A DNA stretch of 64,000 bases from Spironucleus salmonicida (Eukaryota), in assembly GCF_000497125.1 (NCBI RefSeq), contig NC_090600.1, positions 496,001-560,000 of the forward strand. The letters run 5' to 3'. Each line of letters starts with the position of its first letter. Position 1 is the stretch's first letter. Positions 1 through 30,739 of this stretch are shown one piece after another. The position numbers and the translations under genes are program-made. The notes under the pieces were generated by a model, which ran no database searches, was not told the DNA's origin, and saw only the letters and a list, made by a program, of their open reading frames with translations.

Positions 1-3000
1 TAACGATGCCAGCGATTCCCCCCGCACCAATCTGCGCAGTTTGCACTGAACACTTTCCCTTAACGGGAATCGAGCCGTCCGCGCAGGAAATACACTTATT
101 TGCGCTGGTGCAGCGCCCGCACCCTTCACCGCATGACTTGCACACATTCTAGGACAAGAAAAGCCCAAACTTGCAGTCTGTGCAATTTGTCAAGGGATCC
201 AAGCTTTTGTAGCAGATTTCGCACTAATTTTCATTCCCCATAACGCAGGTTTGGCAGTCCTTGACCTTGCATATTTAGGCTATTTCGCAGGACCCAGCGG
301 CCGTCAAATCGTAATCTTGGGCGCACCCCTGGCAGCGGTTTGGGTTGTTCCAGACGCAGGTGAGGCAGTTCTCCACTACGCAGCTTTGCTTGAGTTCGCA
401 GTGTTTATAGCTGGTGAGCTAGTAGTTTGGAGCGCAAACTTTGCACTTTTTGGCGTCGCCCTAAACGCAGGTTTGGCAATTTTAGACTTCGCAGGTTTCC
501 AGATTCTCGCAGTTCCGGCCGTTGTATCCGGGCTTGCACTCGCAGGTGCTGTTGCCAGACGTGGTTTTGCAGGCCCCGTTGCCGCCGCACGGCACGGAAA
601 ACTCGCATGAAACGCTCTGGCAGAACGTACCGTTGAACTGCTTCATGCCGGCGCCGCAGTCGGTCTCGCAGGTCACGCCGGTGAAACTCGCCGTGCAGGC
701 GTCGCAGGTGATGTCCGTGAACTGGTCGGCCTGGGTGCAGGTGCGGCAGTTTGGAATAGCGGCAGTGCAGCCGACGCAGTTCGCGTTTTTGAGGAATGGG
801 AAATCGGAGTCGATTTTGCATTTGGTGCAAGCTGTGGGGGCCTCCATTTCGCAGCCGCCGCAGTTGTTCGTGCAGCACTCGGTCTGGTTGTGGTTTATGG
901 TGGTGCCGGCAGCGCAAATCGCGCAGGCAGCTGGGCTCGTGTTCGTGCAGATCACGCATTTTTCGATCTTGTATTTTCCGTTGCAGGTCTTTCCAGAGCC
1001 AGAATGAATCTCGCAGTTGGGGCCTGTTGAGTCAGACTTGCAGGTACATTTCAGACCAGTTCCGGATGCAGTGCATTGGGATTATCCGGAGCACGGGTGG
1101 GGTGTCGTGCAGGAAAATGGTTGGCAGCCCACGTTATTGTACGGAACGGTATCTAATTTGCATTCAATTTCACAGCTTTGCCCGGTAAAATGAGGTAGGC
1201 ATTTGTTGCAGCTGAGGGGGCTGGTGAAAGCGCATTTATCGCAGTTGGGGAACTTCGTCTAGCAATTTGTGCAGGTGGAGCCTTCAACTACATCAAAGTT
1301 ATAGCATGATAGGCATGTGGTCTTATCCTCTTGGCAGGTTTTGCAGGGTGCGGCGCAATTGTTCTCGCAGTTAGGACCGCTAAAGTTTTCGTTGCAAACA
1401 CATTTTTTGCCAATAGTCGAGTCTTCTTAACAGACTCCATTGCTGTTACAGCCAGATGCGCATGAAGTTGGTTGGCAATGTTCCTGTTCGTATTGCTCAT
1501 AACCATTATCGCATTACTTATCGCACTATTCGCCAGTATATCCATGTTTACATGTACCGCACGTGAAATTACCAGTTGAACCTTAGCACAAACTTTAACA
1601 ATTAGGAATGGACTCCTGGCAAGTTAAGGCTGCACACATATTTCCCTGAATCTTGTAGTCGTTTATGCATTCTTAGCATGTATTGCTATCATGGAGTTAA
1701 CACAATTTACAATTTTACACAGAGCAGGGTGGCCTAGATTCACAGTTAATGCCACCAACTCCATCCTGACACTGGCACACCATGTCGTCTTGATTACGGA
1801 CACACTACCCTTCTCCGTTACAGGGAACATGATCATCGCAAGTAATAGGCTGACAATAGCTCTACATGAACTATTTATTTCCGGCAGGACATTGCTAAGT
1901 ACAATCCTCGCCAGTAAATGTAGCTTTGCAAGTGCTGCAAGTAACTTTATTCAGGAAGCCTATTTAAGCACAGGATTGACAATTGGGATAGACCTGTTCG
2001 CATGTTTTACACTCTTAATTATCAAAGAAAGGTGCGTCGCTAGCTTTATCACAACCGAAGCAAGTACTAGGGGTAGCGCTTTCGCAACTGTGGCATCCAA
2101 CGGCGCAACACTAAAGTGCATCGGTTGACAGCGCAGCACCCATAAAGCATTAAGCGCATGTTTTTCCATTTGTACACTTGAAACAATTCTTAATCTCAGG
2201 GCCTCCGCCACATTTTTTACCCGTAGTCAGAACCTCACAATTTGCCCCAGAAACTCCACTATCGCATGTGCAGACGAAATTGTTAGATTTGACAGAGCAT
2301 GCACCATATCCGTTGCAGGGCTTGGCTCCATCGCAGGAGGTTGCCTGGCAGTATAGGCTGTTGTACTGAACCTGGCCTTCCGGGCACTCCTTTTCGCAGG
2401 AAATTCCAGTAAACCCTCTGGAGCAGAACTCGCACGTAACTGCAGATTCTGGTGCAGTCTGGGCACAACCGTGGCAGTTAGGGACATCCTGGCACGAAAT
2501 ACAAGCAGATCCAACCAAAAATTAACCGGGCGGACAGCTAGTGCACACCTTGTGGTCTGCACTAGTACATGTAGCGCAACTACTATCGCATTGATTTTCA
2601 CAATTTTGCCCAGCAAAACCCTATGTGCAGTTACAAACTTTGTCTCCCTCCATGTTTACCTGGCAGGTACCGTTTCCAGAGCACGCCTGACCGCTAATGC
2701 AGGACGGGTTCTAGCATTGGCTTTCAGTAAACTAAACATAATTTCCAGGGCATTATTTCTTGCAATCCGACTGTGTGAAGCTACCAGAGCATTTTTTGCA
2801 GGTAAAATTAGGGAAAACTCCATCGCAAGTCGCACAGTTTGTAATAATTTATTCACACGTTTTTGGAGCGCAGGTATTTTCTGATAGCATATAGTTTGCA
2901 TCGCAAACAGAGCATACATTAGAAACACTACAAACAGCGCAATTCTCAATATTGCAGGTTGCGGTGCTGGTCTCGCAATTGGCTCCAATAAAGCCGGAAT

Positions 3001-3862
3001 TGCAGGAGCAAAATAGGAACTCGTCCTTTTTCACGCAAGTGCCATTTCCGTTGCATTAGCTAGTCTCAGTGCAGGATGTAGAGGAGCAGAAGTTAATATT
3101 GTGCTAAATTGTGCCAGCAGGGCATTCTCGCTCACAATTTTCACCGGTGAGGCGATCGCGGCATTACGTGCATTGGGCTTCTGCGCCAGAATTTTGAGCG
3201 CATTTCAAGCAGCCATTAATGGCATCAAAGCAGGAAATACACGAATCATCTTTTAAAACTGACCTGATGGAGTCTGGGTCGCATGACTTACACACCGAGG
3301 GCGGGAAAGGGTTCGTAGTCTCAAAATTACCCGTGGTATTTAAGCACGTCTTGCAGCCATTATTGCAGCATCCGGACGCGGGGTCAGGGCCTAACGTTCC
3401 TGGAATGCATCCAGCGCAATCTGCATTATTGCATCCTGAACAAACGGGGAATAAAGTCCCATTACATGTAACACCTACTTTGCGCCTATCGCAATTAGGG
3501 CCTGTGAAATGGCGCTGTTAGTTTTTGGGCTTTTTATCATTTGTACAAAGGCAGGAAGTATCACCATTATTGACAGCAGCCTAAATGGCTCCGTATTTCG
3601 CCCCAGAGCAAATATTTTCGGTTTTACCTTCGAAAGGGAAAGCGGCAGTAAAAGGCTAGCAGTTGCCTTCATTAAGCTGTACCATTCCATCACCGCAATT
3701 TCTAGCGCATGCAGGCCCAGTGAATGGTATTTTGCAGACTTTGCAGGTGATAGTAGTGGAATCGGATTATTAGCAGATTCTGCAATTTGGAATTGCAGTT
3801 TGGCAGGAAACGCAGGTTCCGTTGTTATTGAAAGGTGTCAGAGAAGTCAGATCACACGTCAT
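1..3862 (-). CDS. Cysteine-rich membrane protein (CXXC plus EGF-like modules), copy 1; 3' end runs off the window inside the TM helix
   Basis: ATG at 3862 (MTCDLTSLTPFNNNGTCVSC...), open with TAR=Gln. Colinear inverted duplicate of 26124-29985: matching coordinates sum to 29986 at both ends. Confidence 0.9.
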
Positions 3863-5522
3863 TTTTAAATATACAAAAAGTAACAATTATGAACATTATG
3901 GTAAATTACGTATATATCGCTGTTGTATTTTAATTTGTGAATTTTTATATTTATATAAATAATATAATTATACACTTTCAACATAAAAATATTTATATTA
4001 TATTATTATATAACTTTTAAGTAAAAACTCAAAATTTAAGAAGTGAATATTTGATAAAATTTAAATATTAAGGCGTTAGTCGCGACAATAAGCAAAAACT
4101 TTCAAGCGGGTTATTGTATAAAGTCAAATTAGAGATGTTTTTATTAATTTATGTTACTATATTATTAAAACATAATATTCAATTGTTAGGGTAGTAAAAT
4201 GTATTAATGAAATTATTCTAAATTATAGAGGAAGCTTGAACTATGAGGATTATAGATATGACATAATGAATGAAAACTTACATTCCAAAATAAGTAGTTT
4301 ATCATTCAACAAGTATTTATCTACGAAAATATTATCATAATTTACTTGCTGGATTATATTTAAAACTAAATTTCAGTAATCTTATAATAAAAATCCATAT
4401 CTATACATTAATGATAGAAAAATATCGTCGAATTATGATTGAAAATCACTAATATCTTGTCTGTTACAACAAATTTTTTGAACAGTTTAACATTATTCAT
4501 AATTTTTAGACAAAGCCATCATTTAAAGATCTAATTCAATAATTATAGATATTTATGTAATATTTACTAAATAACTAATTAATAACTATTAATATAGACC
4601 ATTATCTTCTTAACTTCAAACTTGATTAGTTCCATGAAGCTAACTATGTAAGCTTCGTACTATTTTTGAAAATTTATAAATATAATTATAATATAAATAT
4701 TAATAAAGCCATAAATTTAAATAATTTTAACATCAAAATTCTGCATCAATGTGCCTTTCAATACAATAGATTGATCTTAACTCATATCATTTAATTAGTA
4801 AATTATTGTAAAATCTTAACATATTTCTATTGGAAGGGTCTATTCATCAACATAATTATATAATATAAATGAATAATTTTTAAAACTATATTTGTTATTT
4901 AATTTAACTATATTTAGATATATTTTATTATTTCAATAGAAACCCTATAATAACAATATATTTATTAAAATATTTTTTAACCAGTTTAATACAATGAAAA
5001 TAATTTCATTATAAATAGGCAAATCAATCATATTTTTTATTATAAATCTTTTATATAATGAATTACATTTGCTTAACAATAAAACCAGACCGGCTATGAT
5101 ACTTCCTGATGCAGTCGATTATTGAAAAGCTAGTTAAATTGAGTATATATGGTTCATATATAAAAATCACTCAAAATATACATTTATTTTATGTATAGTT
5201 TAAATTTACAATTACAAATAAAAAATTAAAATTGTCCTAAGTATTGTAACGTATTATATGCATATCATTATATATAAATAATTTATACAGATTGTCTGCA
5301 ATATTATTACTAATTATTGTGGTTTAATTATTATAATAACATAAATTTTCTACATATAAAAACTATAAAATTGCTATTATACTATAAAAATATTATCATC
5401 ACTGATTATACCAAATACATTTTTACCTATTTTTAACTTATTTAAAATGTATTTTTTCCAAAAGTATAATAAATGCTTTTAATAACAATTATATAATAAA
5501 AATAAATTTTTGATAATCAAGA

Positions 5523-7094
5523 ATGCTAATAATATTATTGCAAGAATAGATACAGTGCTTTAGTGTTGATTCTATATTAATCGGAGTTTTATAACGTTCA
5601 TAATTTAACATGATTGTTAACCCATCTAAAAATCAAACTTTACACTGTCTTGCTTTTAACAATACTACTTCTACAGCCAGTTTAAATTATGTGGAAGCTG
5701 GAGCTATAAAAAGTATTTAAACTGATTTTCTTTATTAAAGCGAGCATCCTTTAAACATAACATTTGATAAAATTCCTAGTCTTGTATTTAACTTTATGAC
5801 AGACCTTTCTATAGTATCATATACAGTTGTATTAGGCAAAGAGTTAGCTGTACCTGGGACATTCTCACTTATTTAACATACTTTAGTCAATACTTCAAAC
5901 TGTTGGAATGATGTTACTTTAGTATATAATCGTTCTGATAACTCATATATTACGATTAATGCCTAACCCAATGACTGCTTAGTTACGACACCCAAAGTAG
6001 ATTTCTAATATCAGCTAAATAATAATTGGATCTCTATTCCAATTGCCCCTAATTCCTCATCACCAGAATCATATTTTAAGTTTCCCTTTATACATATGGA
6101 CACAAAAAATTATCAAATTTTTTCGGAAACCTAGTCCTTTGAGATATAATAACTAATAACTAACTTTTTTACTAACTTTGCTTAGAATCGGTAACTTCCT
6201 ATCCGTATTGCTTTAATATTTACGTAAGCAGGCTCAAGTCTTAGCTAAGAAATTTTTGGCACTGTAACAAAAATAGAAACTGACACAAATAACTGTATTT
6301 TAGATCTTAACTCAATTGCTATAGTTACGGCAGAAGCCATTCAGAATGTTGCAGCGTTAACAAGTCTAAATTCATGTCTGATTAGCTCCACAGTAACTGT
6401 CACAAGTGTCTTCTAAAAACAATAAATTAGCAATACAGAACCGACTACTGGTATCAGCGGAAAGACTGCAATTGTTTTCAATTTTCAAGTCAAGAATGAC
6501 TAGATATTACTTTAAAATCTGACTGGATAATAGCAATAGTTTTTTATCTCCTTCTTTGACGCTGACGGAAATATAATCCTAGAGTAGACTACAGTTTTTG
6601 ATCCAATATAGTCCTGCTTTTTCGATATCATAAGCAAAGTCAGTTTAAAAAATACGTGTGTTGTGCTATTTCCGACTCTGACACCAATATGTATCGAAAA
6701 ATATCATAGTGGAGTAGTGACAACGTAGTAGTAAATCCTATAATTGACAGAGAGTACGACCTCACGGATACAGTATTAGGTGTATTAAAAGAAGTTAACA
6801 GTACCTAATATAACCTTTTATTAGGAGTGCTTTAATGTTGATGTTACAATAACAGAAAGTCAGTTTCCTTTCTATCCAGGAGATTATGCAGTGCGGCAAA
6901 AGGCGTTTATTACAGATATGAAAACAGCTTTTCGGCCAAGCATTTTTATCACAAATGACATTGATTACTAACTAAGTTATGACGTCATAATTGATCAGAC
7001 TAGTATAATTCTTATATACTTTTGGATTATAATAAGCGTTTTACTTATTATTGCTGTAGCAGTAACAGCTTTTTATAGTTTGAAGCAGCAATGA
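5523..7094 (+). CDS. Type-I transmembrane protein, 523 aa, unknown function; paralog of 30740-32278
   Basis: TGA-free frame MLIILLQEQIQCFSVDS...; short hydrophobic N-terminus, scattered Cys, C-terminal TM IILIYFWIIISVLLIIAVAVTAFYSL, then KQQ-TGA. Confidence 0.85.
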
Positions 7095-7641
7095 TTTTTG
7101 TATTTAATTTATATATGATATTTTATAAATTTAAATCAATATTTTCTCCGCGTAATAGACTTGATAAAAATCAGTTAGATGCATAAATAATATCATGAAT
7201 ATAATTTAATCATTAAGGATTAAAAATGGAAAATATATGTAATTAAAAAGACTAATAATCACATTGAACGAGTAATTAAAAATTATTAAACAGATAATAA
7301 AATTTCATGCTGAAACTCGTATAATAGTTCTTTTTCGAAGATAGTGTATAAAGTTTTTGCATTACTATATTAAATGTCCAAAACTAGGAAAGTTTAACGG
7401 ATTTCAAAAGAACCAGATCTATTACAATGAACTAAGATTAAAAAATAATTTGTATAGTTAATACTCTTATATTTCTAAAAAGTCATTATATTTATTTTAG
7501 TAAGAAAATAAGAACAATCCAAATATAAATATATCTGATAGAAAGAATGAATTTCTAATTATAGCAACAATTGGATCTAGAATAAAATATTTTATATACA
7601 AAAAACTTTTATATACCTTAAGTTACTTTTTATTCATAATA

Positions 7642-8010
7642 TCATTCCATAATCTTTCCGATTGCATCAATCTCTACTACTGCTCCAGCTGCTATATCCT
7701 CAACTTCAATAACAACCTTTTAAACATCACATCCATTGAAATATTCATTAAAAATCTTAATAACAATATCCTAAGAATTACCTTTCTTAATAAAAATTTA
7801 GCATTTGTATACTTGTTAAATGGATGATTTCCCAGCTTCTAAAACAGCCTTTAAATTAATCAAAACGTTATTTGTTTAATCTATAATTGAAGGAGGCATA
7901 ACTCCATCACGGAAACCTAATTATCCTGATGTAAATATAGTATTATTAGCAATAATAGCTGGTGAATAAGGGCCTACTGTGGTAGAGGAAGTCGATATTT
8001 ATGTAAGCAT
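7642..8010 (-). CDS. RidA/YjgF/UK114 (endoribonuclease L-PSP) family protein, 122 aa
   Basis: Family motifs VGPYSPAI, IFTSGQLG (Q encoded by TAA), QT..VL.NLKAVLEAG and VEIDAIG. Confidence 0.9.
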
Positions 8011-8271
8011 TTTAATAAATATTTAAAATATAGCTAGATTATATAATATTATAATAGTATTATTTTTGGTTTATTTGAAAAAATCGAGTTTAGTAAAATC
8101 TTTAAAAGAAAAATTTAATGAACTAAATGTTTATGAAATAAACGTGCATAAATTACTACAAATACTTAATATTCTAAGTGTCATTTATGGTATTATAGTA
8201 ATAAATAAACAATTGAGATAATCTATATTATTATATGATATATTAAATAATACACTAAGTAAAACTGAAAA

Positions 8272-8598
8272 ATGGATTTTTAATTTGATTTTAGTGCTCT
8301 TTCATTAGCTGAACTTTAATAACCTGCTATAATTGCCTTATAATAGCATATATCTATGTAAACTTTAACTCCATAAATACTTAGAAACTTACGTGCCTAA
8401 ATTTTAAGCTCAAATGAAATTTTTATATAACTTTTATATAAAGAGGAGCCAACTATACTAGATTCACTATAGGCAAGAAATTTAGAGCTTCGGGTAAGAT
8501 TAGATTAAATGAAGCATCCAGATCAGCCAATTTTTATGTTTGCATGTATAGGTGTCTCATGGGCAATATTTTTAGTATGGTTAAGCTTAAATATATGA
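8272..8598 (+). CDS. Small tail-anchored membrane protein, 108 aa, hypothetical
   Basis: ATG-to-TGA frame with TAR=Gln; short coiled-coil followed by a C-terminal hydrophobic helix IFMFACIGVSWAIFLVWLSLNI. Confidence 0.65.
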
Positions 8599-8676
8599 AA
8601 TTACTTAGTACAACTAAATAAATAATGATATAAAATATTAATATAAGTATATAGTTTATGCACTATGATAATGATC

Positions 8677-9261
8677 TCACTCTGCATCAATATTTCCTTC
8701 ACAGTATCTTTCGCATAATTTATCAATTTAGAAACCACGGGATATTTCTTAAATAGCAGTATTATTAGATTTTGCAACATTTGTAAATTTCTTAAGTTAT
8801 ACACCAGCATACTTTTATTCTGTTTCACTGCTATGATTGTAAGCTTGCACATCAAGAAACTTGGGAGCAATATTATTATATTAAAACTATGTTGGGATAA
8901 ATATAGATGGTAAAATTAATAAGATTAATAACACAAAAACAAAAAATGAATTTTAATTAAACTGATATGGTTCGTCAGTAAAAATAGTGGGATCAAGTTC
9001 TAGTTATTGATTTTCGACTATTTCAGCTCCATTTTAGTTCATTTTCTATATTTCGTATGCTAGATCTTTAATTGTGCTATGAAGCTCTAAAAATACTGAA
9101 TTATTTTGCTACTTTAACAAAGAATTTTCTGCCTCTAATTTAATATTTTCAAGCTATAATCGATCTAATACTTCCTACTATTACATTTATATTTCTTTTT
9201 ACTTTTCCCTATATTATTTAGAGGCCATCTTCTGCTTTTCTTTTGAATCTAATTCATCCAT
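8677..9261 (-). CDS. bZIP-like protein with one internal transmembrane helix, 194 aa
   Basis: MDELDSKEKQKMASKQYREKQKEIQMQQQEVLDRLQLENIKLEAENSLLKQQN...FFVFVLLILLILPSIFIPT...NIDAE; ends GAG-TGA. The ORF is solid; the bZIP call is by motif inspection. Confidence 0.75.
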
Positions 9262-9331
9262 TTTAAAACGGAATATGATGCTATGATGTATACCATTATA
9301 TAATATTATTATTTAAAAAATATTATACTAA

Positions 9332-9898
9332 ATGCCTGTGTATCAACCGCCATTATTTCATCTTAATCTGGGTTATAATGAAAATCATATGATTTTTAAC
9401 ATGTAAATATAAACAAAACAATATAATCCTAAATTTGTAGTATTCTAGTGCTCTAATAATCTTCTGCCTTAGATCTTAAAAAAAACCTCTCAACTTTAAG
9501 TCGTTTTAAAGAACTATTTGCATTACTTACTTTAAACTACATTATAGCCTATAGAACCACCAACTACAAACCTTTTAACTATTTTAACTAAAAATACAGA
9601 TTTTCTACTCACAATACTACAGTTAACCATTTAAAAAAACGGCAAATTCATTTTTGTGATTCCAGACTATTTATTCCTCAACCGCGATCTCACACCAACT
9701 TACAATGCGCTGCTCCAGCCCTTGCAGAACATCCTGAAAATCGTGTATAACCACTACACAGAAAATCACTATTTTGCGCTCAACAACACTCCTGCACCTA
9801 AGCACGTCGCTTTAAGCCAAAATTCAACGCAGCCACGCAAATCTCATATTACTGCCCAAATTCTAAAACCCAAAGTGACCGTTTACACGACTTACTGA
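9332..9898 (+). CDS. Hypothetical protein, 188 aa
   Basis: TGA-free frame from ATG 9332 (MPVYQPPLFH...) that contains the track ORF 9656-9898. Confidence 0.6.
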
Positions 9899-9910
9899 CA
9901 ATTTCTACCC

Positions 9911-10978
9911 TCACTTCTTCAAATTAACGATATTCTTCATGTCCGCCTGCCCTCTCTTCTGGCCTACGCACTCGACGATCCACACGATGTTCTCGATTTC
10001 GATCTCCCGCATCATCAGATACGCCCAAACGCAGCCAATATTGAACTGCTAGCTCAGCGTGTCGATCAGGACGTCCACTTTCGCGATTTGGAACTGCTCC
10101 TGCAACCCCCTGCCCTGCGCGAGCGCGGCGTCGAAAACGCCGCTGTACTCCTAGAAGTCCGAAACGGCCTGCCTCAGGCTGTCGATGTCCGTGGAAAGGC
10201 CGATTTGGTCGTGCCAGAGCGGGTAAAGGAGGCCGATCGGAGCGAACATTTCGGCCAGTTTCTGCGGTTTCTGGAAGTTGTAGTTCAGCAAATCGGCTTT
10301 CAGGAGGATCGCGCGCACGTCGCACTCGAACGCCAGCAGCGTCCTGCAGGCCTCGTAGGTGTTTCCGCCGCAGCGCTGCAGGAACCGCTCGAAAACTATG
10401 TAAAACTGCTTGTAGACGCGGCACCTCATCATTTCGAGCTCGATGAGGTAGTCCTGCTCAGGGAGCGATTTGAGGTTGTGGAGCGTATCTGCGTCGATCT
10501 GGGCGCTTTCGAAGTAGGACGCGATGGGGAGCTGCTCCAGAACGATCGTGAAGGCGTCTTCGGACTGCGCGAGCTGGGCCAGAGGAGGGAGAAATCCGAT
10601 GGGATGGAATGTTGCCTGCTCATCGCTGTGCTTCAGATATGATAGGAGGGCTATGAAGACGTTGTCGATCATGTAGCGGTGACGGATGAACTGGATTATC
10701 GCGTAGAACGGAGCTTCCGATTCGCCTTCAATTTCATCGATCTCGTCGCTCAGGCGCTTCGTGAGCCTGGATCTGAGCTGCGATGCCTGTGGTACGCGCA
10801 AATCTGCGACCGCAGACTGCAGATATGTGCCCTGGAGCGCCGTCAGCACTTCTTGTACCGAGTTGAGCTGCGAGAGGGCGCCATATTCGGCGGGTGAGAG
10901 GAATTTGTCGCATTTGGAGCGAATGAAGGCCTCAGTATCACCGCTGGATGCGTTAAACAGCGCACTGTTCGCAATCAT
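9911..10978 (-). CDS. VMA6: V-type ATPase V0 subunit d (AC39/Vma6), 355 aa
   Basis: Motifs EAFIRS..FLSPAEY..L.Q, YMIDNV, FHPIG, LAFECD.R, IGLLYP and C-terminal E.EIENIVWI.EC; reads through TAG at 10151-10153 to AAG-TGA. Confidence 0.93.
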
Positions 10979-11063
10979 TTTTTGGATTTAGTTGACGTGG
11001 AAGGGTAAAATCATACTATATTATATATAATATTGATAAAATATTTTCATGACACCACTTTGC

Positions 11064-11597
11064 TCAGCGCCAATTTTTCTTCCTGTACGCGGCGAAGAAC
11101 ACATTGAATTCCATGACTCCCCTGCTGCCAAACTCCCTTCTGACCCGCTCGACCTCGAAATCGACGATTTTTGTGAATTCCGCGACTGTCGCGAAGTCGA
11201 ACTAACGCAGGAACGCATCGCTCTGGGCCATTTTTGCCAGCAGCTGGTGCGCAACGTTGATCATCAGCAATCCCCAGCCGAGCTCTTCACGCGCATAGAC
11301 AGACATGGATGCGTCCATTACGTGCGCTGCGAGGGCGCCGAGCCCACGGAAGTCTGACACCGGCGATCCAGCACGCTAGAAACCGACATCCTGCCAACTA
11401 TCCACGTGATGCCGCGCCCGGAATGTCTCGATCAGGCGCTCTTCCGGGATCTGGATGGTGGCTTTTGCAAGATTCTGCATTCGCAACAGCGCAGCGCGTT
11501 GTGCGCTGGAGGATGGCTGAAGGGTGGTGCGTAGGTGGAAAACGAGCGGGATTGCCACGAACACAGAGAACAGAAAAAATTTTGCCAATTGGGTCAT
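11064..11597 (-). CDS. ELMO/CED-12 domain protein (ELMOD-like, putative ARF/ARL GAP), 177 aa
   Basis: WQDVGFQRAGSPVSDFRGLGALA matches the ELMO W..GFQ...P.TDFRG.G signature (the GFQ Gln is TAG); downstream LMINVA and MEFN motifs. Confidence 0.85.
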
Positions 11598-11743
11598 TTT
11601 TTCATAATATTATATTTGATATAATACTGATAAAAAGTGAATTATTGTTTAAGTGGATAATTATAACATATAAAAATATTTTTAATACTAAATTTCTTGG
11701 TTTATATAATAATTTGAATAGGTTCGATTGCATAATGTAAAAA

Positions 11744-12343
11744 ATGGGAAGTCCTATGCTGTATGTGCCTAATCTGATTGACTATATCAGATTGTTGTTG
11801 CTAGTAATAGTGTTGTATGTTAAATCGGTTAAGAAACAAGCGGTTCTGCTTATCCTGTCAGATGTTTTGGATCTTTTGGATGGATATATTGCGCGCTTGC
11901 TTAAGCAGATGACTATATTAGGGTAAATTTTAGACATGGTGGTTGACCGTATATCGTCAACTATAATTTCTATATTGATAATTTAGCATTCTCCGTAATA
12001 TCTAACACCTTTCACATTGCTAATTGTAATTGACATAAGTGCTCATTGGCTTAGGCACGTATGTGGTTTTATATTAAAATCTCATCATAAAGAGATAATT
12101 ACTGTTCAACCTTTACTTAATTTATATTATCAAAGTAAAATACTCCTTACACTTTTATGTTTTTGTTATCAAGGGTTTTTAATTAGCTTCTTGCTTTACA
12201 TTAACGGAGAACTTGAGACAGTATCTAAGTTATTTTGTAGCATAAGTTTTATACCATTAATACTTAAAGTATGGATTAGTATTTTATAAGGGTGGGAAGG
12301 GTTGAAGTTACTGTCAGCTTTGGAATGTGAAAAAAGCGAATGA
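11744..12343 (+). CDS. PIS1: CDP-diacylglycerol-inositol phosphatidyltransferase (PI synthase), 199 aa
   Basis: LYVPNLIDYIR start; CDP-alcohol phosphotransferase motif DLLDGYIARLLKQMTILGQILDMVVDR; DISAHW, SHHK and LLNLYY motifs. Confidence 0.93.
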
Positions 12344-12646
12344 TTTATACTATTAAAATAATTATATTTGTTATATGGTGCTATAAATTTACAGTTATGT
12401 TAAAAAGATAATTATGAAAGGTAGTATCAAACAAAAATCATTAATATACGCAGCCATAACTGTCAATATACTAGTTTATTATGGTTTCTTTGAACTTCAA
12501 AAAAGATTAAAATTCCACTATTATACACCACTAATAATCTAAACTATTATCGTTTTTCATTTTTTAAACTATTATATAAGATTTTATACATATATATTTA
12601 CTATGTAATTTTAATTTTAATTAAAAATTTCATTCCTTTTGAGATA

Positions 12647-13354
12647 ATGGCTATTCCTGAAATCTACATGAAAAACAGAAAGTCTGCTGCTGATGCTACC
12701 GCTGCCCGTGCCACTGCTATTTCCAAATAATAAGTTGTTGACGCCGAGCTTACTAAGCTTGCTGCTACTAATTTTGCTAAGTATGAGACTGAATACAAGT
12801 AGATTGAAGCTACCCATAACAAGTCTGTCGCTGATGCTGAAAAGCAAGGTGGATTCTTCATTAAGGCTGAGCCCAAGGTTCTTTTAGTTATCAGAATCAA
12901 AGGTATCACTAAAATGTCTCCCCAGCAGAAATAGATCATGGCTCTTTTCCGTCTCAAAACCATCAACTCTGCTGTTTTCATCAAGGCTAATAAGGCTACT
13001 TTGAATGCTCTTCGCTATGTTGCCCACTTCGTTACCTGGGGTGCACCAACTGTTGATACTATCCGTAACTTAATGTATGTTCGTGGTTATGGTAAGCTCA
13101 ATAAGGATCGTGTACCAATTGTTGATAACTCTGTTATTGATAAGGCTATCGGTGAAACTGGTATCCGTACCATTGAAGATCTTATCCACGAAATCTTCAC
13201 CTGTGGTGAAAACTTTAAGAAAGCCAACAACTTCATCTGGCCTTTCAAACTTAATTCTCGCCGTCTTGTTGACAAACGTGTTAATTTCTCCGAAGGTGGT
13301 GACCACGGTTTCCGCGGTGATTACATCAACGAATTCATCTCTAAGATGCTTTGA
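12647..13354 (+). CDS. RPL7: 60S ribosomal protein L7 (uL30), 235 aa
   Basis: MAIPEIYMK start; motifs EPKVLLVIRIKGI, LFRLKTINSAVF, IEDLIHEIFTCGENFKKANNFIWPFKL and GGDHGFRGDYIN. Confidence 0.97.
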
Positions 13355-13636: not shown

Positions 13637-16600
13637 TCACTCTGTTAGTTAAGTTTAATACTCGCCTAATTTTTCTTTCAACTATTCATTTTCAAACTGT
13701 AATTATGTTATTGTTGTATCATTTAGTTCGCAGAGCTAAGATATTTTAATTTTAAATGTTTCTATTTCTTAATCCAAGAAATAAACTGTTGATTTAAGCT
13801 AATTTCCCTAATTTTCCAATATAGATATTATTTAGTTTAATTCATTATTATCTTTTTCTAATAATAAAACCCTAACTTGTAATTACTTGTTGGAATTTTC
13901 GACGCCGGACGCAGCCTGGAGATCCGCGATCTGCTGGTTGAGCTGGGTGGTTTGGCGAGTGAGTGACTCGATCTCCTTCTGCTTCTACTACGCTTGGGAT
14001 TCTGATGCTTGCTTGAGAGTCGCAATCTCTTGCTAGAGGTTCTGGGTACGCTGGGTGGCCTATTCTTCGACCAAGCCGCGGGCGACGTCATCTTCGGAAC
14101 TGCGCTGCGAGAGCTGCTTCTTGAGCTCTTCGATAGTAACGGAAAGCTGCTTGGCCTCTGCCTCGTACTGCTCCTGGAGGGAGTCGACGGTCGCCTCGAG
14201 ATCGGCATTGTCGGTACGGGCGTCGTGAAGTTGCTTGGTGGCTTCGGCTAGCTTGGTCTTCAGTCCGTGGACGCGGCCTACCAGCTCTTCGTTGGTCTGG
14301 CGGGCTACATCGGCATCCTGGTTCACGGACATGTTGAGCTGGGAGAGGTTCGTGATGCTCATCTTCAGGTCCTCAACCTCACGGTCTAGGGTCTCGATGG
14401 ACGTCTTCTTCTTGGCATTCTGTACGTTGGCGAACCCAATGATCTAATCGAGGTTCTCGCACTTGTCCTGGAGAGCCTCCACCTGCTGGCGGAGTAGCTC
14501 CTCAGATTCTCTGGAAGCAGTAAGCTGGGAGCGGAGGGCATCCATGGCACCATCACGGTCGACGCCGGACGCAGCCTGGAGATCCGCGATCTGCTGGTTG
14601 AGCTGGGTGGTTTGGCGAGTGAGTGACTCGATCTCCTTCTGCTTCTACTACGCTTGGGATTCTGATGCTTGCTTGAGAGTCGCAATCTCTTGCTAGAGGT
14701 TCTGGGTACGCTGGGTGGCCTATTCTTCGACCAAGCCGCGGGCGACGTCATCTTCGGAACTGCGCTGCGAGAGCTGCTTCTTGAGCTCTTCGATAGTAAC
14801 GGAAAGCTGCTTGGCCTCTGCCTCGTACTGCTCCTGGAGGGAGTCGACGGTCGCCTCGAGATCGGCATTGTCGGTACGGGCGTCGTGAAGTTGCTTGGTG
14901 GCTTCGGCTAGCTTGGTCTTCAGTCCGTGGACGCGGCCTACCAGCTCTTCGTTGGTCTGGCGGGCTACATCGGCATCCTGGTTCACGGACATGTTGAGCT
15001 GGGAGAGGTTCGTGATGCTCATCTTCAGGTCCTCAACCTCACGGTCTAGGGTCTCGATGGACGTCTTCTTCTTGGCATTCTGTACGTTGGCGAACCCAAT
15101 GATCTAATCGAGGTTCTCGCACTTGTCCTGGAGAGCCTCCACCTGCTGGCGGAGTAGCTCCTCAGATTCTCTGGAAGCAGTAAGCTGGGAGCGGAGGGCA
15201 TCCATGGCACCATCACGGTCGACGCCGGACGCAGCCTGGAGATCCGCGATCTGCTGGTTGAGCTGGGTGGTTTGGCGAGTGAGTGACTCGATCTCCTTCT
15301 GCTTCTACTACGCTTGGGATTCTGATGCTTGCTTGAGAGTCGCAATCTCTTGCTAGAGGTTCTGGGTACGCTGGGTGGCCTATTCTTCGACCAAGCCGCG
15401 GGCGACGTCATCTTCGGAACTGCGCTGCGAGAGCTGCTTCTTGAGCTCTTCGATAGTAACGGAAAGCTGCTTGGCCTCTGCCTCGTACTGCTCCTGGAGG
15501 GAGTCGACGGTCGCCTCGAGATCGGCATTGTCGGTACGGGCGTCGTGAAGTTGCTTGGTGGCTTCGGCTAGCTTGGTCTTCAGTCCGTGGACGCGGCCTA
15601 CCAGCTCTTCGTTGGTCTGGCGGGCTACATCGGCATCCTGGTTCACGGACATGTTGAGCTGGGAGAGGTTCGTGATGCTCATCTTCAGGTCCTCAACCTC
15701 ACGGTCTAGGGTCTCGATGGACGTCTTCTTCTTGGCATTCTGTACGTTGGCGAACCCAATGATCTAATCGAGGTTCTCGCACTTGTCCTGGAGAGCCTCC
15801 ACCTGCTGGCGGAGTAGCTCCTCAGATTCTCTGGAAGCAGTAAGCTGGGAGCGGAGGGCATCCATGGCACCATCACGGTCGACGCCGGACGCAGCCTGGA
15901 GATCCGCGATCTGCTGGTTGAGCTGGGTGGTTTGGCGAGTGAGTGACTCGATCTCCTTCTGCTTCTACTACGCTTGGGATTCTGATGCTTGCTTGAGAGT
16001 CGCAATCTCTTGCTAGAGGTTCTGGGTACGCTGGGTGGCCTATTCTTCGACCAAGCCGCGGGCGACGTCATCTTCGGAACTGCGCTGCGAGAGCTGCTTC
16101 TTGAGCTCTTCGATAGTAACGGAAAGCTGCTTGGCCTCTGCCTCGTACTGCTCCTGGAGGGAGTCGACGGTCGCCTCGAGATCGGCATTGTCGGTACGGG
16201 CGTCGTGAAGTTGCTTGGTGGCTTCGGCTAGCTTGGTCTTCAGTCCGTGGACGCGGCCTACCAGCTCTTCGTTGGTCTGGCGGGCTACATCGGCATCCTG
16301 GTTCACGGACATGTTGAGCTGGGAGAGGTTCGTGATGCTCATCTTCAGGTCCTCAACCTCACGGTCTAGGGTCTCGATGGACGTCTTCTTCTTGGCATTC
16401 TGTACGTTGGCGAACCCAATGATCTAATCGAGGTTCTCGCACTTGTCCTGGAGAGCCTCCACCTGCTGGCGGAGTAGCTCCTCAGATTCTCTGGAAGCAG
16501 TAAGCTGGGAGCGGAGGGCATCCATGGCACCATCACGGTCGACGCCGGACGCAGCCTGGAGATCCGCGATCTGCTGGTTGAGCTGGGTGGTTTGGCGAGT

Positions 16601-22600: not shown

Positions 22601-22645
22601 ACGTACAGCTAAACGTTATTATCTTGTCAGAGTTAAGTCTTCCAT
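13637..22645 (-). CDS. Giant coiled-coil protein, ~3002 aa, containing 12 apparently identical 220-aa repeats
   Basis: Continuous TGA-free frame from ATG 22645 (MEDLTLTRQQRLAV...) through the repeat array to GAG-TGA at 13637; heptad-rich E/Q/K/L composition. Confidence 0.88.
13899..21883. repeat. Coding tandem repeat, 660-bp unit x ~12.1
   Basis: Sequence lines repeat every 11 lines (660 bp); ORF-track entries recur at +660; no unit differences seen by eye. Confidence 0.98.
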
Positions 22646-22897
22646 TATTTCAAAAATAGGAAAGAACTGTTTATAACAATAAAACAAGTATAATATTCAT
22701 AAATATACTTTTTTTAATGTTTTTTGTATTAAATAATATACACATATTACTATAAATTATAAACAAGAATTACCATTTCAAAGTATAATAGCATAATAAT
22801 ATATAATTAAGTATTAATAAAGAATATAAAATTATGAGTAATAACATAAATTAACAATGCTATTAATAAAAGTAAAATACATAGCATTACAGTACAC

Positions 22898-23161
22898 TCA
22901 CACAATTAACTAATCTTCTTATCTCATTTGCAATTCTCGTATTTTTATATATTCAGATCTAAACTATTTCATTGATTATGAGATTCTAGTAATTCGTAAT
23001 CTTATTTGTTCTAATTCATGGTGAAGATCAAAAATACTACTTCTTGGTGTGATTTCAGAGTTTTCAGATAATGAAACATCGATCATTTCAGTAATAGCTG
23101 AAAATGTTTGCGACCATTCTGATGATTCTAAAAATGTAAGCTTAGAAACTTTTTTTGACAT
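22898..23161 (-). CDS. Small hypothetical protein, 87 aa; frame stays open further upstream, so the start is uncertain
   Basis: Track ORF MSKKVSKLTF... extends through TAA to TGA at 22898. Confidence 0.45.
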
Positions 23162-30128: not shown

Positions 30129-30739
30129 GGGTTTATGTAACGATTTGGAATGAAAGCTACTGATTGTAATATGAAATGTTAGAAAGGGTTCTTGATTTTT
30201 CAAGTATTTTATTTACTTGCTTATTATAGTGAGAATAAAGATGTATTGTGAAAGTTATTTGAAAGTTTTCACGGCAAAAGATTGAATATATGAAACACTT
30301 CATTGTATATACGATAATTAGGTCAAAATGTTTTTACTGGATAACTTAAAAGTGATTTAATTATTTAACAAATATGAGGTATATAAGTTAAATAATTCTT
30401 TATATGGGAATTTTATCCATCGATCTAATTTAGTAGAAAATAATACTTACTTATAATTCAAAACTACATAACTCTTAAAAATATGATGTTATAATATTAT
30501 AAAATATTGTACATTATTGTTAAAAAACTTATATAAATTTTATGTTAATTAGATAAATTACGTAATATATTAAATTTGTAAAATATTTATTCAATGTTAA
30601 ACATGCTGAAAAATGCTAATAATGTGTAATAAAAATATTATTAAAAATAATAAATAAAGTTGTCTGACTTCATAATTTTACTGTAAAATAAATAATTATT
30701 TTGACACATGTATAATCATAGTAAATTCTTTATTGTAGA

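What the first reader, a model, noticed from the sequence alone, without database searches (positions are those of the whole stretch)
8677..9261. Candidate membrane-tethered bZIP transcription factor in a diplomonad-like genome
Seen in the sequence, and invisible in the standard-code track: the N-terminal KEKQKMASKQYREKQKE has the bZIP N-x7-R spacing, with Gln in place of the invariant Asn. Leucines follow at +17, +24 and +31 from the Arg, with the classic L..EN..L signature. Then come a linker, one TM helix with internal prolines (FFVFVLLILLILPSIFIPT) and a ~70-aa tail with two N-glycosylation sequons (NHS, NNT) and a CERYC pair. Established: this type-II architecture defines ATF6, CREB3 and plant bZIP17/28/60, which are released by regulated proteolysis or IRE1 splicing. 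Diplomonads are generally regarded as having a very reduced transcription-factor set and no recognised ATF6 branch. Inference: a minimal ER-to-nucleus signalling factor. I see no clear RxxL site-1 protease site, so the release mechanism could be unusual.
Basis: partly seen in the sequence, partly recalled or inferred. Interest (0 to 1): 0.85.

Follow-up and report, generated by a model that had tools for sequence, protein, structure and literature searches.

The report
Membrane-anchored divergent bZIP protein, diplomonad
This is a real small gene of a diplomonad protist that encodes a very divergent leucine-zipper (bZIP) DNA-binding-type domain tied to a membrane anchor, an architecture conserved across diplomonads and a plausible candidate for the ER-to-nucleus signal carrier these organisms are thought to lack.

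Summary

ORF length alone means nothing here: a 25% GC block under a one-stop code gives about 7 such ORFs by chance. Four other lines show a real gene:
- codon-position G periodicity that 0 of 5865 simulated ORFs reach;
- a separate, error-free contig covering just this ORF in 4 of 4 probable-RNA runs;
- the same AAAATG start context as neighbouring genes;
- four relatives among 1.84 billion representatives.

The relatives come from Hexamita inflata (three paralogues), a Giardia muris protein annotated "bZIP transcription factor domain protein", and unnamed sources. All seven full-length sequences keep the order basic region, zipper, linker, one proline-containing TM helix, tail; the eighth is a 93-aa fragment that ends in the TM helix.

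bZIP homology is supported at family level. Two members pass Pfam bZIP_2, and the family profile hits ATF-2, NFIL3 and C/EBPβ in register. This protein itself is sub-threshold, and the invariant Asn is Gln (Glu in the Giardia muris-type members).

Membrane release, topology, DNA binding and a stress role are all inferred. There is no S1P site, no ATF6-like luminal domain and no IRE1-type hairpin. I rate it a new variant of a known kind, of moderately high interest.

The parts
8677..9261 (-). Coding sequence, 194 codons plus TGA (8677-8679), read with TAA/TAG = Gln
   Evidence: Codon periodicity. Homologues. A separate contig covers it in 4 of 4 runs.
9262..9271 (-). A/T-rich start context (TTTTAAAA directly before the ATG), shared with neighbouring genes
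   Evidence: The candidate has ...ccgttttaaaATG, RidA ...tttattaaaATG, V-ATPase d ...aaatccaaaaaATG and CDP-OH transferase ...aatgtaaaaaATG. The internal Met12 lacks this context (gcagaagATG).
9190..9249 (-). Basic region, residues 5-24 (D-S-K-E-K-Q-K-M-A-S-K-Q-Y-R-E-K-Q-K-E-I). Gln10 is at the invariant-Asn position and Arg18 at the invariant-Arg position.
   Evidence: D5, S14, Y17, R18, K20 and Q21 are invariant in the 5-sequence N-terminal alignment.
9040..9189 (-). Leucine-zipper / coiled-coil region, residues 25-74. d positions: Q28, L35, L42, L49, V56. a positions: L32, N39, N46, N53, L60, L67.
   Evidence: register. N39, L42, E45, N46, F57 and L67 are invariant in 7 sequences. The AF2 model has one helix over 2-84, with pLDDT 85-96 for residues 1-70.
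8947..9039 (-). Linker, residues 75-105. Low confidence and variable in length among relatives, with a conserved Pro98 motif just before the membrane segment.
   Evidence: P98 invariant; linker 31 to about 70 residues. (pLDDT below 50 for 82-101).
8890..8946 (-). Single transmembrane helix, residues 106-124, with invariant Pro118 and Pro123 (L-P-S-x-F-x-P)
   Evidence: one strong hydrophobic window in 8 of 8 family sequences. P118 and P123 invariant; helix 103-121.
8680..8889 (-). C-terminal tail, residues 125-194, presumed luminal; no recognisable family
   Evidence: best feature score 0.84, no named family; pLDDT below 50.
8701..8715 (-). C-x3-C pair (Cys183, Cys187) near the C-terminus
   Evidence: Aligned with CQDVC (H. 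inflata paralogues P0004 and P0007) and CKNLC (P0005). Only the first Cys aligns in the two G. muris-type sequences. P0008 has the same two Cys spacing by the table (Cys212/216) but was not in the alignment.
8673..9256 (.). Extent of the separate contigs in four probable-RNA runs (X1 8674-9225, X2 8677-9253, X3 8673-9253, X4 8676-9256), 0 differences
   Evidence: table 8. Contigs give no strand. The run kind is 'RNA?', a guess by the tool.

Best explanation
The ORF is an expressed gene of a hexamitid-type diplomonad. It encodes the local member of a small, diplomonad-restricted family of membrane-anchored, highly divergent bZIP proteins.

Shown or directly supported:
- The gene is real.
- The N-terminal ~75 residues are one long helix homologous to bZIP basic-region/zipper domains. 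They keep the invariant Arg but have Gln in place of the invariant Asn.
- A single proline-kinked TM helix follows about 30 residues later, then a 70-aa tail ending in a C-x3-C pair.
- The same order of parts is kept from Hexamita to Giardia muris.

Inferred mechanism:
- The protein inserts into the ER/nuclear-envelope membrane with the bZIP part on the cytosolic/nucleoplasmic side and the Cys-bearing tail in the lumen.
- It is held inactive at the membrane.
- The bZIP part is freed by cleavage in or next to the Pro-containing TM helix. There is no site-1 (RxxL) step and no IRE1-type splicing.
- The freed part then acts as a dimeric transcription factor whose DNA half-site differs from that of Asn-bearing bZIPs.
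- A role in the ER/redox stress response is the most attractive guess, but it is only a guess.
For: The gene is real:
- G1/G2/G3 = 0.262/0.072/0.133. 0 of 5865 simulated ORFs of 150 codons or more reach this.
- Of the 16 real ORFs of 150 codons or more in block 4000-9600, only three have G1 of 0.21 or more: this one, RidA and ORF 5523-7094.
- In 4 of 4 runs of one study, a separate contig of 552-603 nt with 0 differences covers 8673/8677-9225/9256.
- In the same runs the neighbouring genes form their own contigs. Within 8 kb the contig depths run from about 3 to more than 36,000, the highest over a ribosomal protein uL30-like gene. One loose end is adapter plus poly-T. I take this as cDNA-like behaviour; the tool labels the runs only 'RNA?'.
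- The start context matches neighbouring genes.

Relatives:
- phmmer against 1.84 billion representatives gave 5 proteins at E of 0.001 or less, self included: P0003 at 4e-14, H. inflata P0004 at 7.5e-8 over residues 5-191, P0005 at 5e-5, P0006 at 2e-4.
- The family profile also recovers G. muris P0009, annotated as a bZIP-domain protein with PF07716.

bZIP homology:
- Pfam bZIP_2 scores 28.5 bits against a cut-off of 22.3 for P0006.
- PF07716 is precomputed on P0006 and P0009.
- P0001 scores 14.7 bits, E 0.032, residues 12-52 on profile positions 14-54.
- The N-terminal family profile against PDB gives ATF-2 at E 2.1e-4, NFIL3 at 0.004 and C/EBPβ at 0.018. 21 of the 34 hits at E of 1 or less are bZIP domains, aligned from the basic region onward in one register.
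- In the ESM Atlas feature search the first hit scores 0.91 with 192 of 256 shared features, in a cluster where 55% carry bZIP_1 and 48% bZIP_2. All ten best family-bearing hits agree.
- AF2 gives a single helix over 2-84 with pLDDT 85-96 for residues 1-70.

Architecture:
- There is one TM window in 8 of 8 sequences, and Pro118 and Pro123 are invariant.
- The C-x3-C pair is kept in P0001 and in the three other hexamitine-type sequences in the alignment (P0004, P0007, P0005).

No alternative release route is visible:
- The tail has no RxxL.
- Of the 4 CNGNNGN heptamers in the mRNA, none has a stem longer than 1 bp. The motif is recalled, not taken from a tool.
Against: - P0001 itself is below the Pfam threshold (14.7 against 22.3 bits). 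P0005 is weaker (E 0.11). 3 of 3 H. inflata paralogues give no bZIP hit even at E of 1 or less.
- The Asn that is nearly invariant across eukaryotic bZIPs (PMC4736632, passage) is absent in 7 of 7 family sequences that include a basic region. It is Gln in the 4 hexamitine-type sequences in the alignment, and also in P0008 by my reading of its printed sequence. It is Glu in 2. Sequence-specific DNA binding is therefore in doubt.
- 13 of the 34 PDB hits are generic coiled coils or unrelated proteins (geminin coiled-coil, HEXIM1, COMP, SCOC, FAAH and others). Part of the score is therefore coiled-coil composition.
- Per the tool's own calibration, shuffled proteins get an Atlas first hit of 0.9 or more 4-10 times in 100.
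- Topology: the 15 residues before the TM helix hold 0 Lys/Arg and a net charge of -1 to -4 in 8 of 8 sequences. The 15 after it hold 1-2 Lys/Arg in 7 of 7. By the positive-inside rule (established knowledge) this favours the opposite orientation.
- There is no evidence of any kind for cleavage, relocation, stress induction or a protease partner. No genome was available to look for S2P, SPP, rhomboid or IRE1.
- The runs are not on record as RNA, all belong to one study, and may be from the strain the window was assembled from.
Confidence: 0.5

Rival explanations
1. A permanently membrane-bound bZIP. The protein is never cleaved. It diffuses from the ER into the inner nuclear membrane, and its 105-residue N-terminal part binds DNA or another nuclear factor there. 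It would regulate genes or tether chromatin at the nuclear periphery, or hold a soluble partner at the membrane.
For: The architecture and bZIP homology are the same as in the best explanation. No site-1 motif, no ATF6-like luminal domain and no splice hairpins are visible. The N-terminal domain is small enough to reach the inner nuclear membrane by diffusion (general knowledge, not tested).
Against: The two invariant prolines in the TM helix and the conserved Pro motif before it are easier to explain if the helix is a protease substrate. That is an inference from what is known of S2P, SPP and rhomboid substrates. The solved bZIPs matched are all soluble nuclear factors, and the known membrane-bound bZIPs are activated by release (established knowledge).
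Confidence: 0.2
2. A coiled-coil membrane protein that no longer acts, or never acted, as a DNA-binding factor. The bZIP-like helix would serve only as a dimerisation or scaffold element of an ER/Golgi or surface membrane protein, possibly with the N-terminus outside the cytosol.
For: The DNA-contacting Asn is missing in 7 of 7 sequences. This protein and 4 of its 6 full-length relatives fail the Pfam threshold. The flank charges favour N-out. Generic coiled coils are among the PDB hits (13 of 34).
Against: The most conserved stretch of the family is the basic segment, not the zipper: S14, Y17, R18, K20 and Q21 are invariant. The bZIP hits align from the basic region onward, whereas most non-bZIP coiled-coil hits start only at profile positions 37-40. 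Two members pass Pfam bZIP_2. A 105-residue, highly charged N-terminal domain without a signal peptide is a poor candidate for translocation (general knowledge).
Confidence: 0.22
3. Not a gene: a chance open frame in AT-rich DNA under a code with a single stop codon, or the antisense frame of a gene on the plus strand (ORF 8544-9278, 244 aa).
For: ORFs of this length are expected by chance here: 7.3 expected, 9 seen. A longer ORF overlaps on the other strand.
Against: 0 of 5865 simulated ORFs reach its codon periodicity. The plus-strand ORF has G1 of 0.106 and an antisense-like Phe/Ile/Leu/Tyr composition. Independent relatives exist at E down to 4e-14 with the same architecture. Contigs match the ORF's bounds.
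Confidence: 0.02

Closest known systems
ATF6 / CREB3 (OASIS) family of animals and plant bZIP17, bZIP28, bZIP60 (membrane-tethered bZIP factors)
   Same: Same order of parts: N-terminal bZIP, linker, one TM helix containing helix-breaking residues, C-terminal tail with cysteines. The likely logic is also the same: a transcription factor stored on the ER membrane.
   Different: It is far smaller (194 aa). It has no RxxL site-1 motif and no recognisable luminal domain. It has no IRE1-type hairpins. The basic region reads Q-x2-A-S-x2-Y-R, not the N-x2-S-A-x2-S-R signature reported for the ATF6-OASIS/HAC1/proto-B cluster (PMC4736632, passage). The flank charges are atypical. Common descent of the membrane anchor, as against independent acquisition, could not be tested.
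Giardia muris 'bZIP transcription factor domain protein' (P0009) and its unnamed 79%-identical relative P0006
   Same: Same family. The profile built from this protein and its relatives recovers P0009 at E 2.9e-53, driven mostly by P0006, which is in the profile. It shares the basic motif A-S-x-x-Y-R-E-K-Q, the zipper motif E/Q-N-x2-L-x-A-E-N, and the Pro-containing TM helix.
   Different: It is 316 aa, with an extra 30-residue N-terminal extension and a 140-residue tail. It has Glu, not Gln, at the Asn position. Only one Cys aligns with the C-x3-C pair. It passes Pfam bZIP_2, whereas the window's protein does not.
The 'solitary bZIP' of Giardia lamblia described in the literature
   Same: It is a single diplomonad bZIP with a non-Asn residue at the invariant position 13 (Gly) (PMC4736632, passage). 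Others have speculated that it relates to unfolded-protein and oxidative stress (PMC2492810, passage).
   Different: I could not retrieve its sequence: one search found only P0009 and P0006 among 7604 candidates. Orthology with this family and presence of a TM helix are therefore untested. The word 'transmembrane' does not occur in PMC4736632.
Soluble bZIPs with solved structures (ATF-2, NFIL3, C/EBPβ, Fos/Jun, ATF4)
   Same: These are the best sequence-profile matches. They align in one register from the basic region through four or five heptads.
   Different: They are soluble nuclear proteins that carry the invariant Asn. E-values are modest (2e-4 to about 1).

Membership tests
bZIP superfamily (Pfam bZIP_2 PF07716 / bZIP_1 PF00170) | Score above the curated Pfam gathering threshold | tested here: not met
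   P0001 scores 14.7 bits against bZIP_2, cut-off 22.3, E 0.032. At family level it is met by P0006 (28.5 bits), and PF07716 is precomputed on P0006 and P0009. It is not met by P0005 (13.1 bits) or by 3 of 3 H. inflata paralogues (no hit at E of 1 or less).
bZIP superfamily | Invariant Asn of the basic region (position 13 of the N-x7-R motif) | tested here: not met
   Gln10 occupies the position that aligns with the Asn of ATF-2 and NFIL3. The position is Gln in the 4 hexamitine-type sequences aligned and Glu in the 2 G. muris-type sequences; P0008 also has Gln by its printed sequence.
bZIP superfamily | Invariant Arg/Lys eight residues after that position, within a Lys/Arg-rich segment | tested here: met
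   Arg18 is invariant in all 5 aligned N-termini, together with S14, Y17, K20 and Q21.
bZIP superfamily | Heptad Leu repeat in register with the basic region (d positions at +10, +17, +24, +31 from the Arg) | tested here: met
   Q28, L35, L42, L49 and V56 are at d positions; L32, N39, N46, N53 and L60 are at a positions. Three of the first four d positions are Leu. L42 and N39 are invariant.
bZIP superfamily | Basic region and zipper form one continuous alpha-helix | tested here: met
   The AF2 model from the 7-sequence alignment has a helix over 2-84, with mean pLDDT 85-96 for residues 1-70. This is a prediction only.
bZIP superfamily | Sequence-specific DNA binding as a dimer | not testable with these tools
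   Needs an experiment (EMSA, SELEX or DAP-seq with residues 1-80).
Membrane-tethered bZIPs of the ATF6 / CREB3 / plant bZIP17-28-60 kind | bZIP domain N-terminal to a single TM helix, with a C-terminal tail beyond it | tested here: met
   There is one hydrophobic window (KD 2.1-2.8) in 8 of 8 family sequences. The tail is 70-141 aa in the 7 full-length sequences.
Membrane-tethered bZIPs of the ATF6 / CREB3 / plant bZIP17-28-60 kind | Type-II topology (N-terminus cytosolic, C-terminus luminal) | tested here: inconclusive
   Flank charges favour the opposite orientation: 0 Lys/Arg before the helix and 1-2 after it. The absence of a signal peptide, the long charged N-domain and the tail cysteines favour type II. 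No topology predictor or experiment was available.
Membrane-tethered bZIPs of the ATF6 / CREB3 / plant bZIP17-28-60 kind | Luminal site-1 protease motif (RxxL or similar) after the TM helix | tested here: not met
   The tail of P0001 has two Arg (SRGF, ERYC) and neither fits RxxL. The H. inflata tail printed has no Arg at all.
Membrane-tethered bZIPs of the ATF6 / CREB3 / plant bZIP17-28-60 kind | Helix-destabilising residues in the TM helix, as needed by intramembrane proteases | tested here: met
   Pro118 and Pro123 are invariant in all 7 aligned sequences. That they serve cleavage is an inference.
Membrane-tethered bZIPs of the ATF6 / CREB3 / plant bZIP17-28-60 kind | Basic-region signature N-x2-S-A-x2-S-R of the ATF6-OASIS/HAC1/proto-B cluster (PMC4736632) | tested here: not met
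   P0001 reads Q-K-M-A-S-K-Q-Y-R. Only the final Arg matches exactly.
Membrane-tethered bZIPs of the ATF6 / CREB3 / plant bZIP17-28-60 kind | Stress-dependent release (S1P/S2P cleavage, or IRE1 splicing that removes the TM helix) | not testable with these tools
   Two indirect checks only. None of the 4 CNGNNGN heptamers in the mRNA has a stem longer than 1 bp. No joints appear in the contigs of 4 runs, but contigs drop rare forms.

The most novel reading that the evidence does not exclude
This family is the missing ER-stress sensor and transducer of diplomonads. It would be a minimal, ATF6-like, membrane-stored bZIP whose short luminal tail senses folding or redox state through its C-x3-C pair. 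Its release would need no site-1 protease and no IRE1, only a cut at the proline-kinked TM helix. If so, storing a bZIP on the ER membrane would be an ancestral eukaryotic device rather than an invention of animals and plants. [quoted passage not shown] The Gln/Glu/Gly replacement of the invariant Asn would define a new bZIP DNA-recognition mode.
Probability: 0.2. Interest if true: 0.85.

Novelty: new variant of a known kind. Interest (0 to 1): 0.6.

Why it matters
Diplomonads (Giardia, Spironucleus, Hexamita) are textbook cases of a pared-down eukaryotic cell.

What the held literature says:
- They have at most one bZIP (PMC2492810 and PMC4736632, passages).
- In the parasites one study surveyed, bZIP, IRE1 and ATF6-type domains are missing (PMC3084755, passages).
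- A 2013 paper, seen only as a title in reference lists, reports an ER-directed transcriptional response in Giardia without conserved sensor-transducers.

A conserved, apparently expressed, membrane-anchored bZIP is the obvious candidate to test for that role, and it turns the question into a simple tagging and knock-down experiment.

It also bears on two wider points. One is whether membrane-stored bZIPs go back to the last eukaryotic common ancestor. The other is what a bZIP basic region does when its most conserved DNA-contacting residue is replaced.

For annotation, it shows that short genes in very AT-rich, one-stop-codon DNA can be told from chance ORFs by codon-position G content.

Tried and rejected
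- **Homodimer prediction.** Residues 1-95, two copies. No verdict: score 0.28 against a mark of 0.32, controls not run, and the tool did not use the alignment I gave. This is no evidence either way.
- **Sequencing runs.** No RNA holder is listed on record; the four holders are labelled 'RNA?' by guess. The parts of 5000-13000 without contig cover are not used as evidence.
- **Whole genome.** None is held. I could not search for S1P, S2P, SPP, rhomboid, IRE1 or further bZIPs.
- **Word-index search with P0001 alone.** Only itself among 97 candidates.
- **Word-index search with profile A1.** 3 of 8000 scored candidates passed, and even alignment members P0003-P0005 were not returned. I suspect, but did not check, that poly-Gln words swamped the candidate list.
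- **Word-index search with G. muris P0009.** Only itself and P0006 among 7604 candidates. No G. intestinalis orthologue was retrieved.
- **Metagenome scan with profile A4.** 48 pattern matches, 0 confirmed.
- **PDB by single sequence.** Nothing below E 0.16.
- **ESM Atlas on residues 88-194.** Best score 0.84 and no family, so the tail remains unassigned.
- **Atlas structure search.** Only long-helix look-alikes with TM-scores of 0.54 or less; not used.
- **Foldseek on my AF2 model.** Not run, because a single long helix with overall pTM 0.29 would give meaningless matches.
- **IRE1-type twin hairpins.** None found. The motif is recalled.
- **Papers not held.** PMC509262 and PubMed 23617761.
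- **Literature searches that found no paper on a membrane-anchored diplomonad bZIP:**
  - bZIP + Giardia + transmembrane (12 papers)
  - bZIP + diplomonad
  - bZIP + Giardia (48 papers, 30 listed)
  - ATF6 + Giardia (38 papers, 20 listed)
  - Giardia + intramembrane proteolysis
  - Spironucleus + unfolded protein response
  - Giardia/rhomboid/SPP/S2P, which gave nothing on diplomonad intramembrane proteases
The bZIP alignments in the additional files of PMC4736632, which could show the Giardia sequence, were not seen.
Full report
**1. What is in the sequence**

With TAA and TAG read as Gln (NCBI table 6), the minus strand 8677-9261 gives a 194-aa protein with 18 reassigned codons.
- the basic stretch K-E-K-Q-K-M-A-S-K-Q-Y-R-E-K-Q-K-E, with Gln10 and Arg18 eight residues apart;
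- Leu35, Leu42 and Leu49 at +17, +24 and +31 from Arg18;
- L-x2-E-N-x2-L;
- one strongly hydrophobic segment, 106-124, with two prolines;
- a 70-residue tail with NHS, NNT and CERYC, and no RxxL.

The canonical first zipper position (+10) is Gln28. The 'a' positions carry Asn three times in a row (39, 46, 53).

**2. Is it a gene?**

ORF length is no argument here. The ORF lies in a 25% GC block, and only TGA stops translation. First-order Markov simulations of block 4000-9600 give on average 7.3 ORFs of 194 codons or more, and 9 are observed. A longer ORF (244 aa) overlaps on the plus strand. Four other lines of evidence settle the question.

- *Codon periodicity.* G is 0.262, 0.072 and 0.133 at codon positions 1, 2 and 3. 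This resembles the Pfam-supported RidA gene next door (0.363/0.115/0.106) and differs from every competing frame. 0 of 5865 simulated ORFs of 150 codons or more reach its G1 or its G1 excess. Among the 16 real ORFs of that size in the block, only three have G1 of 0.21 or more: this one, RidA and ORF 5523-7094.
- *Contigs from sequencing runs.* Four public runs of one coded study hold the region. When they were laid on 5000-13000, each run had a separate contig with no differences covering 8674-9225, 8677-9253, 8673-9253 or 8676-9256. That is the ORF and essentially nothing else.
  - The tool labels these runs 'RNA?' only by guess.
  - I read them as cDNA-like for three reasons. Neighbouring genes form their own gene-sized contigs. 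Contig depths within 8 kb run from about 3 to over 36,000, and the extreme lies over a gene whose product reads as ribosomal protein uL30/L7 (the name is my reading of the translation and was not scanned). One loose end is adapter plus poly-T.
  - The runs come from one study and may be from the strain that gave the assembly, so they are not independent of the window.
- *Start context.* The ATG at 9261 is preceded by TTTTAAAA, the same A-rich context as the likely starts of RidA, V-ATPase subunit d and the CDP-alcohol phosphatidyltransferase gene. The internal Met12 is not. Residues before Met12 (D5, K/R7, K/R9, Q10, K11) are conserved in relatives. I therefore take Met1 as the start, although the contigs stop 5-36 nt short of it. 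RidA's contigs also stop just short of its ATG.
- *Relatives.* An exhaustive phmmer search of 1.84 billion representatives found 5 proteins at E of 0.001 or less, self included.

**3. The family**

The relatives found are:

| Protein | Length | E-value | Source or identity |
|---|---|---|---|
| P0003 | 93-aa fragment | 4e-14 | unnamed |
| P0004 | 221 aa | 7.5e-8, aligned over residues 5-191 | Hexamita inflata, 'conserved hypothetical protein', with two paralogues P0007 and P0008 |
| P0005 | 239 aa | 5e-5 | database identifier only |
| P0006 | 312 aa | 2e-4 | unnamed |

A profile search added P0009 (316 aa), which is 79% identical to P0006 and annotated 'bZIP transcription factor domain protein [Giardia muris]'.

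All seven full-length sequences share the same order of parts:
- a basic motif [Q/E]-[K/R]-x-[A/S]-S-[K/Q]-[Q/R]-Y-R-[E/D]-K-Q-[K/R];
- a zipper with invariant N39, L42, E45 and N46;
- an invariant F57, L67 and K73;
- a linker of variable length ending in an invariant Pro98;
- one TM helix with invariant Pro118 and Pro123;
- a tail.

The C-x3-C pair is kept in P0001 and in the three other hexamitine-type sequences aligned. The G. muris-type tail is twice as long and keeps only the first Cys.

The window itself fits a hexamitid diplomonad on three counts: the code, two near-identical cysteine-rich EGF-like membrane protein genes, and a closest named relative in H. inflata. The window's own record names are masked, so I go no further than that.

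**4. Is it a bZIP?**

For this protein alone the answer is 'not by the book'. Pfam bZIP_2 gives 14.7 bits against a cut-off of 22.3 (E 0.032). The match is nevertheless in the right place, residues 12-52 on profile positions 14-54.

At family level the case is good:
- P0006 passes bZIP_2 (28.5 bits, E 1.7e-6), and PF07716 is precomputed for P0006 and P0009.
- A profile of the five N-terminal regions searched against all PDB sequences gives ATF-2 at E 2.1e-4, NFIL3 at 0.004-0.009 and C/EBPβ from 0.018.
- 21 of the 34 hits at E of 1 or less are bZIP domains (ATF-2, NFIL3, C/EBPβ, Fos, FosB, JunD, BZLF1, ATF4). All are aligned from the basic region onward in one register (the full-length profile gave the same picture more weakly).
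- The other 13 are generic coiled coils or unrelated proteins. Most of those coiled coils match only from profile position 37-40, the zipper part.
- The ESM Atlas feature search points the same way. The first hit scores 0.91 with 192 of 256 shared features, in a bZIP_1/bZIP_2 cluster, and all ten best family-bearing hits agree. The tool warns that shuffled proteins reach 0.9 in 4-10% of cases.
- AlphaFold2 on the 7-sequence alignment gives one uninterrupted helix over 2-84 (pLDDT 85-96 for residues 1-70), a TM helix over 103-121 (about 68) and an unmodelled tail.

Points against:
- 3 of 3 H. inflata paralogues give no bZIP hit at E of 1 or less, and P0005 gives only E 0.11.
- The Asn position is Gln or Glu in 7 of 7 sequences.
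- According to Jindrich and Degnan (PMC4736632, passages read), Asn13 and Arg21 are the most conserved bZIP residues across 896 proteins. There are only three kinds of exception, one being the 'solitary' Giardia bZIP with Gly13. The diplomonad lineage as a whole thus seems to have given up the Asn, which makes its DNA recognition unusual or doubtful.

**5. How it probably works**

Shown: a bZIP-homologous helix, a single TM helix with conserved prolines, and a short Cys-bearing tail, conserved across diplomonads.

Inferred: the protein sits in the ER/nuclear-envelope membrane with the bZIP part facing the cytosol, and is released by a cut in or next to the TM helix.
- Helix-breaking residues in TM segments are what S2P, SPP and rhomboid need (established knowledge; for rhomboid I saw only the abstract listing of PMC3494066).
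- A site-1 step is unlikely, because the tail has no RxxL.
- IRE1-type splicing is unlikely, because none of the 4 CNGNNGN heptamers has a stem longer than 1 bp (recalled motif) and no joints appear in the contigs (weak).

The orientation is the weakest link. The 15 residues before the helix hold no Lys or Arg and are net acidic in 8 of 8 sequences. The 15 after it hold 1-2 Lys/Arg in 7 of 7. On its own this favours N-out. Against that stand the absence of a signal peptide, the long and highly charged N-domain, the bZIP homology and the tail cysteines.

The rivals are:
- a never-cleaved bZIP acting at the inner nuclear membrane;
- a coiled-coil membrane protein that no longer binds DNA;
- a chance ORF, which is practically excluded.

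**6. Comparison with what is known**

It works like, or at least is built like, ATF6, CREB3/OASIS and plant bZIP17/28/60. I do not file it as a member of that group, for these reasons:
- the site-1 motif was tested and is not met;
- the N-x2-S-A-x2-S-R signature of the ATF6-OASIS/HAC1/proto-B cluster (PMC4736632) was tested and is not met;
- no ATF6-like luminal domain is recognisable;
- topology and processing are untested;
- common descent of the anchor cannot be judged from about 60 alignable residues.

As a bZIP-superfamily member it is acceptable at family level, with two defining features missing in this protein: the Pfam threshold and the Asn.

**7. Novelty**

A bZIP in diplomonads is known:
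- PMC2492810 (passage) speaks of a single bZIP in G. lamblia and speculates on unfolded-protein and oxidative stress.
- PMC4736632 (passages) notes the Gly13.
- The G. muris protein is annotated as a bZIP-domain protein.

I found no description of the membrane anchor and its conservation, nor of the hexamitine members, which are annotated 'conserved hypothetical'. Six searches of the held library turned up no such paper, and 'transmembrane' does not occur in PMC4736632.

Gosline et al. (PMC3084755, passages) report bZIP, IRE1 and ATF6 domains missing from the parasites they surveyed, and cite an apparent lack of a transcriptional UPR in Giardia. [quoted passage not shown] The library misses most subscription journals, and supplements are closed, so prior description elsewhere cannot be excluded.

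**8. Limits**

- No genome of the organism was available, so neither proteases nor further bZIPs could be sought.
- The G. lamblia protein could not be retrieved, so its orthology with this family and its TM helix are untested.
- The expression evidence rests on contigs of runs whose RNA nature is a guess.
- The dimer prediction gave no verdict and is recorded only under things tried.

**Verdict.** This is a real, conserved, membrane-anchored divergent bZIP. It is a new variant of a known kind, of moderately high interest, and its function as an ER-to-nucleus transducer is plausible but entirely untested.

Noticed in passing
window 5-3862 (-) and 26124-30128 (+): Two very large cysteine-rich, EGF-like membrane protein genes (1286+ and 1334 aa; Pfam EGF_Teneurin). 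They are near-identical over most of their length and lie in opposite orientation about 22 kb apart. The first runs off the window end. They look like the cysteine-rich surface protein families typical of diplomonads.
   Followed up: partly
window 13637-22645 (-): A 3002-aa ORF at about 57% GC in an otherwise AT-rich neighbourhood. It is made almost entirely of exact tandem copies of a coiled-coil unit of roughly 230 aa. Its Pfam hits are only generic coiled-coil families (Filament, crescentin rod and others).
   Followed up: partly
window 12647-13354 (+): A 235-aa ORF whose translation reads like ribosomal protein uL30/L7. Contigs over 12777-13000 have depths of 16,000-36,000 in all four runs, against 3-1300 for the neighbours. 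Two longer ORFs on the opposite strand (291 and 277 aa) are probably spurious.
   Followed up: partly
window 11037-11580 and 11309-12343 (+): The 344-aa '+' ORF is a chimera of compositions. Its GC-rich first third (11309 to about 11700) has no Pfam match. The CDP-alcohol phosphatidyltransferase domain lies in the AT-rich part, which has its own AAAATG start at 11744 and its own contigs from about 11728-11754. A separate contig covers 11037-11580, with an adapter plus poly-T loose end at 11037, hinting at a minus-strand transcript ending there.
   Followed up: no
window 9911-11218 (-): The ORF for V-ATPase subunit d (Pfam vATP-synt_AC39, E 3e-42) is probably over-extended at its 5' end. The domain starts at residue 96, the contigs end at 10935-10970, and an ATG with the usual AAAAATG context lies at 10978.
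   Followed up: partly
window 5523-7094 (+) and 30740-32278 (+): Two ORFs of about 515 aa with no Pfam family. Each ends in a hydrophobic segment and a short basic tail, which looks like a type-I membrane protein. The first has coding periodicity and its own contigs at 5531-6994. Whether the two are paralogues was not checked.
   Followed up: no
window 7642-8010 (-): A RidA / L-PSP endoribonuclease-family gene (Pfam E 7e-19) lies in the same AT-rich block. Its listed ORF (180 aa) is probably over-extended; the ATG with the AAAATG context is at 8010, and its contigs span 7627-8007.
   Followed up: partly
whole window: Base composition is extremely uneven from gene to gene, about 18-33% GC against 55-60% GC within a few kb. 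Any ORF-length criterion therefore has to be composition-aware under this one-stop code.
   Followed up: partly
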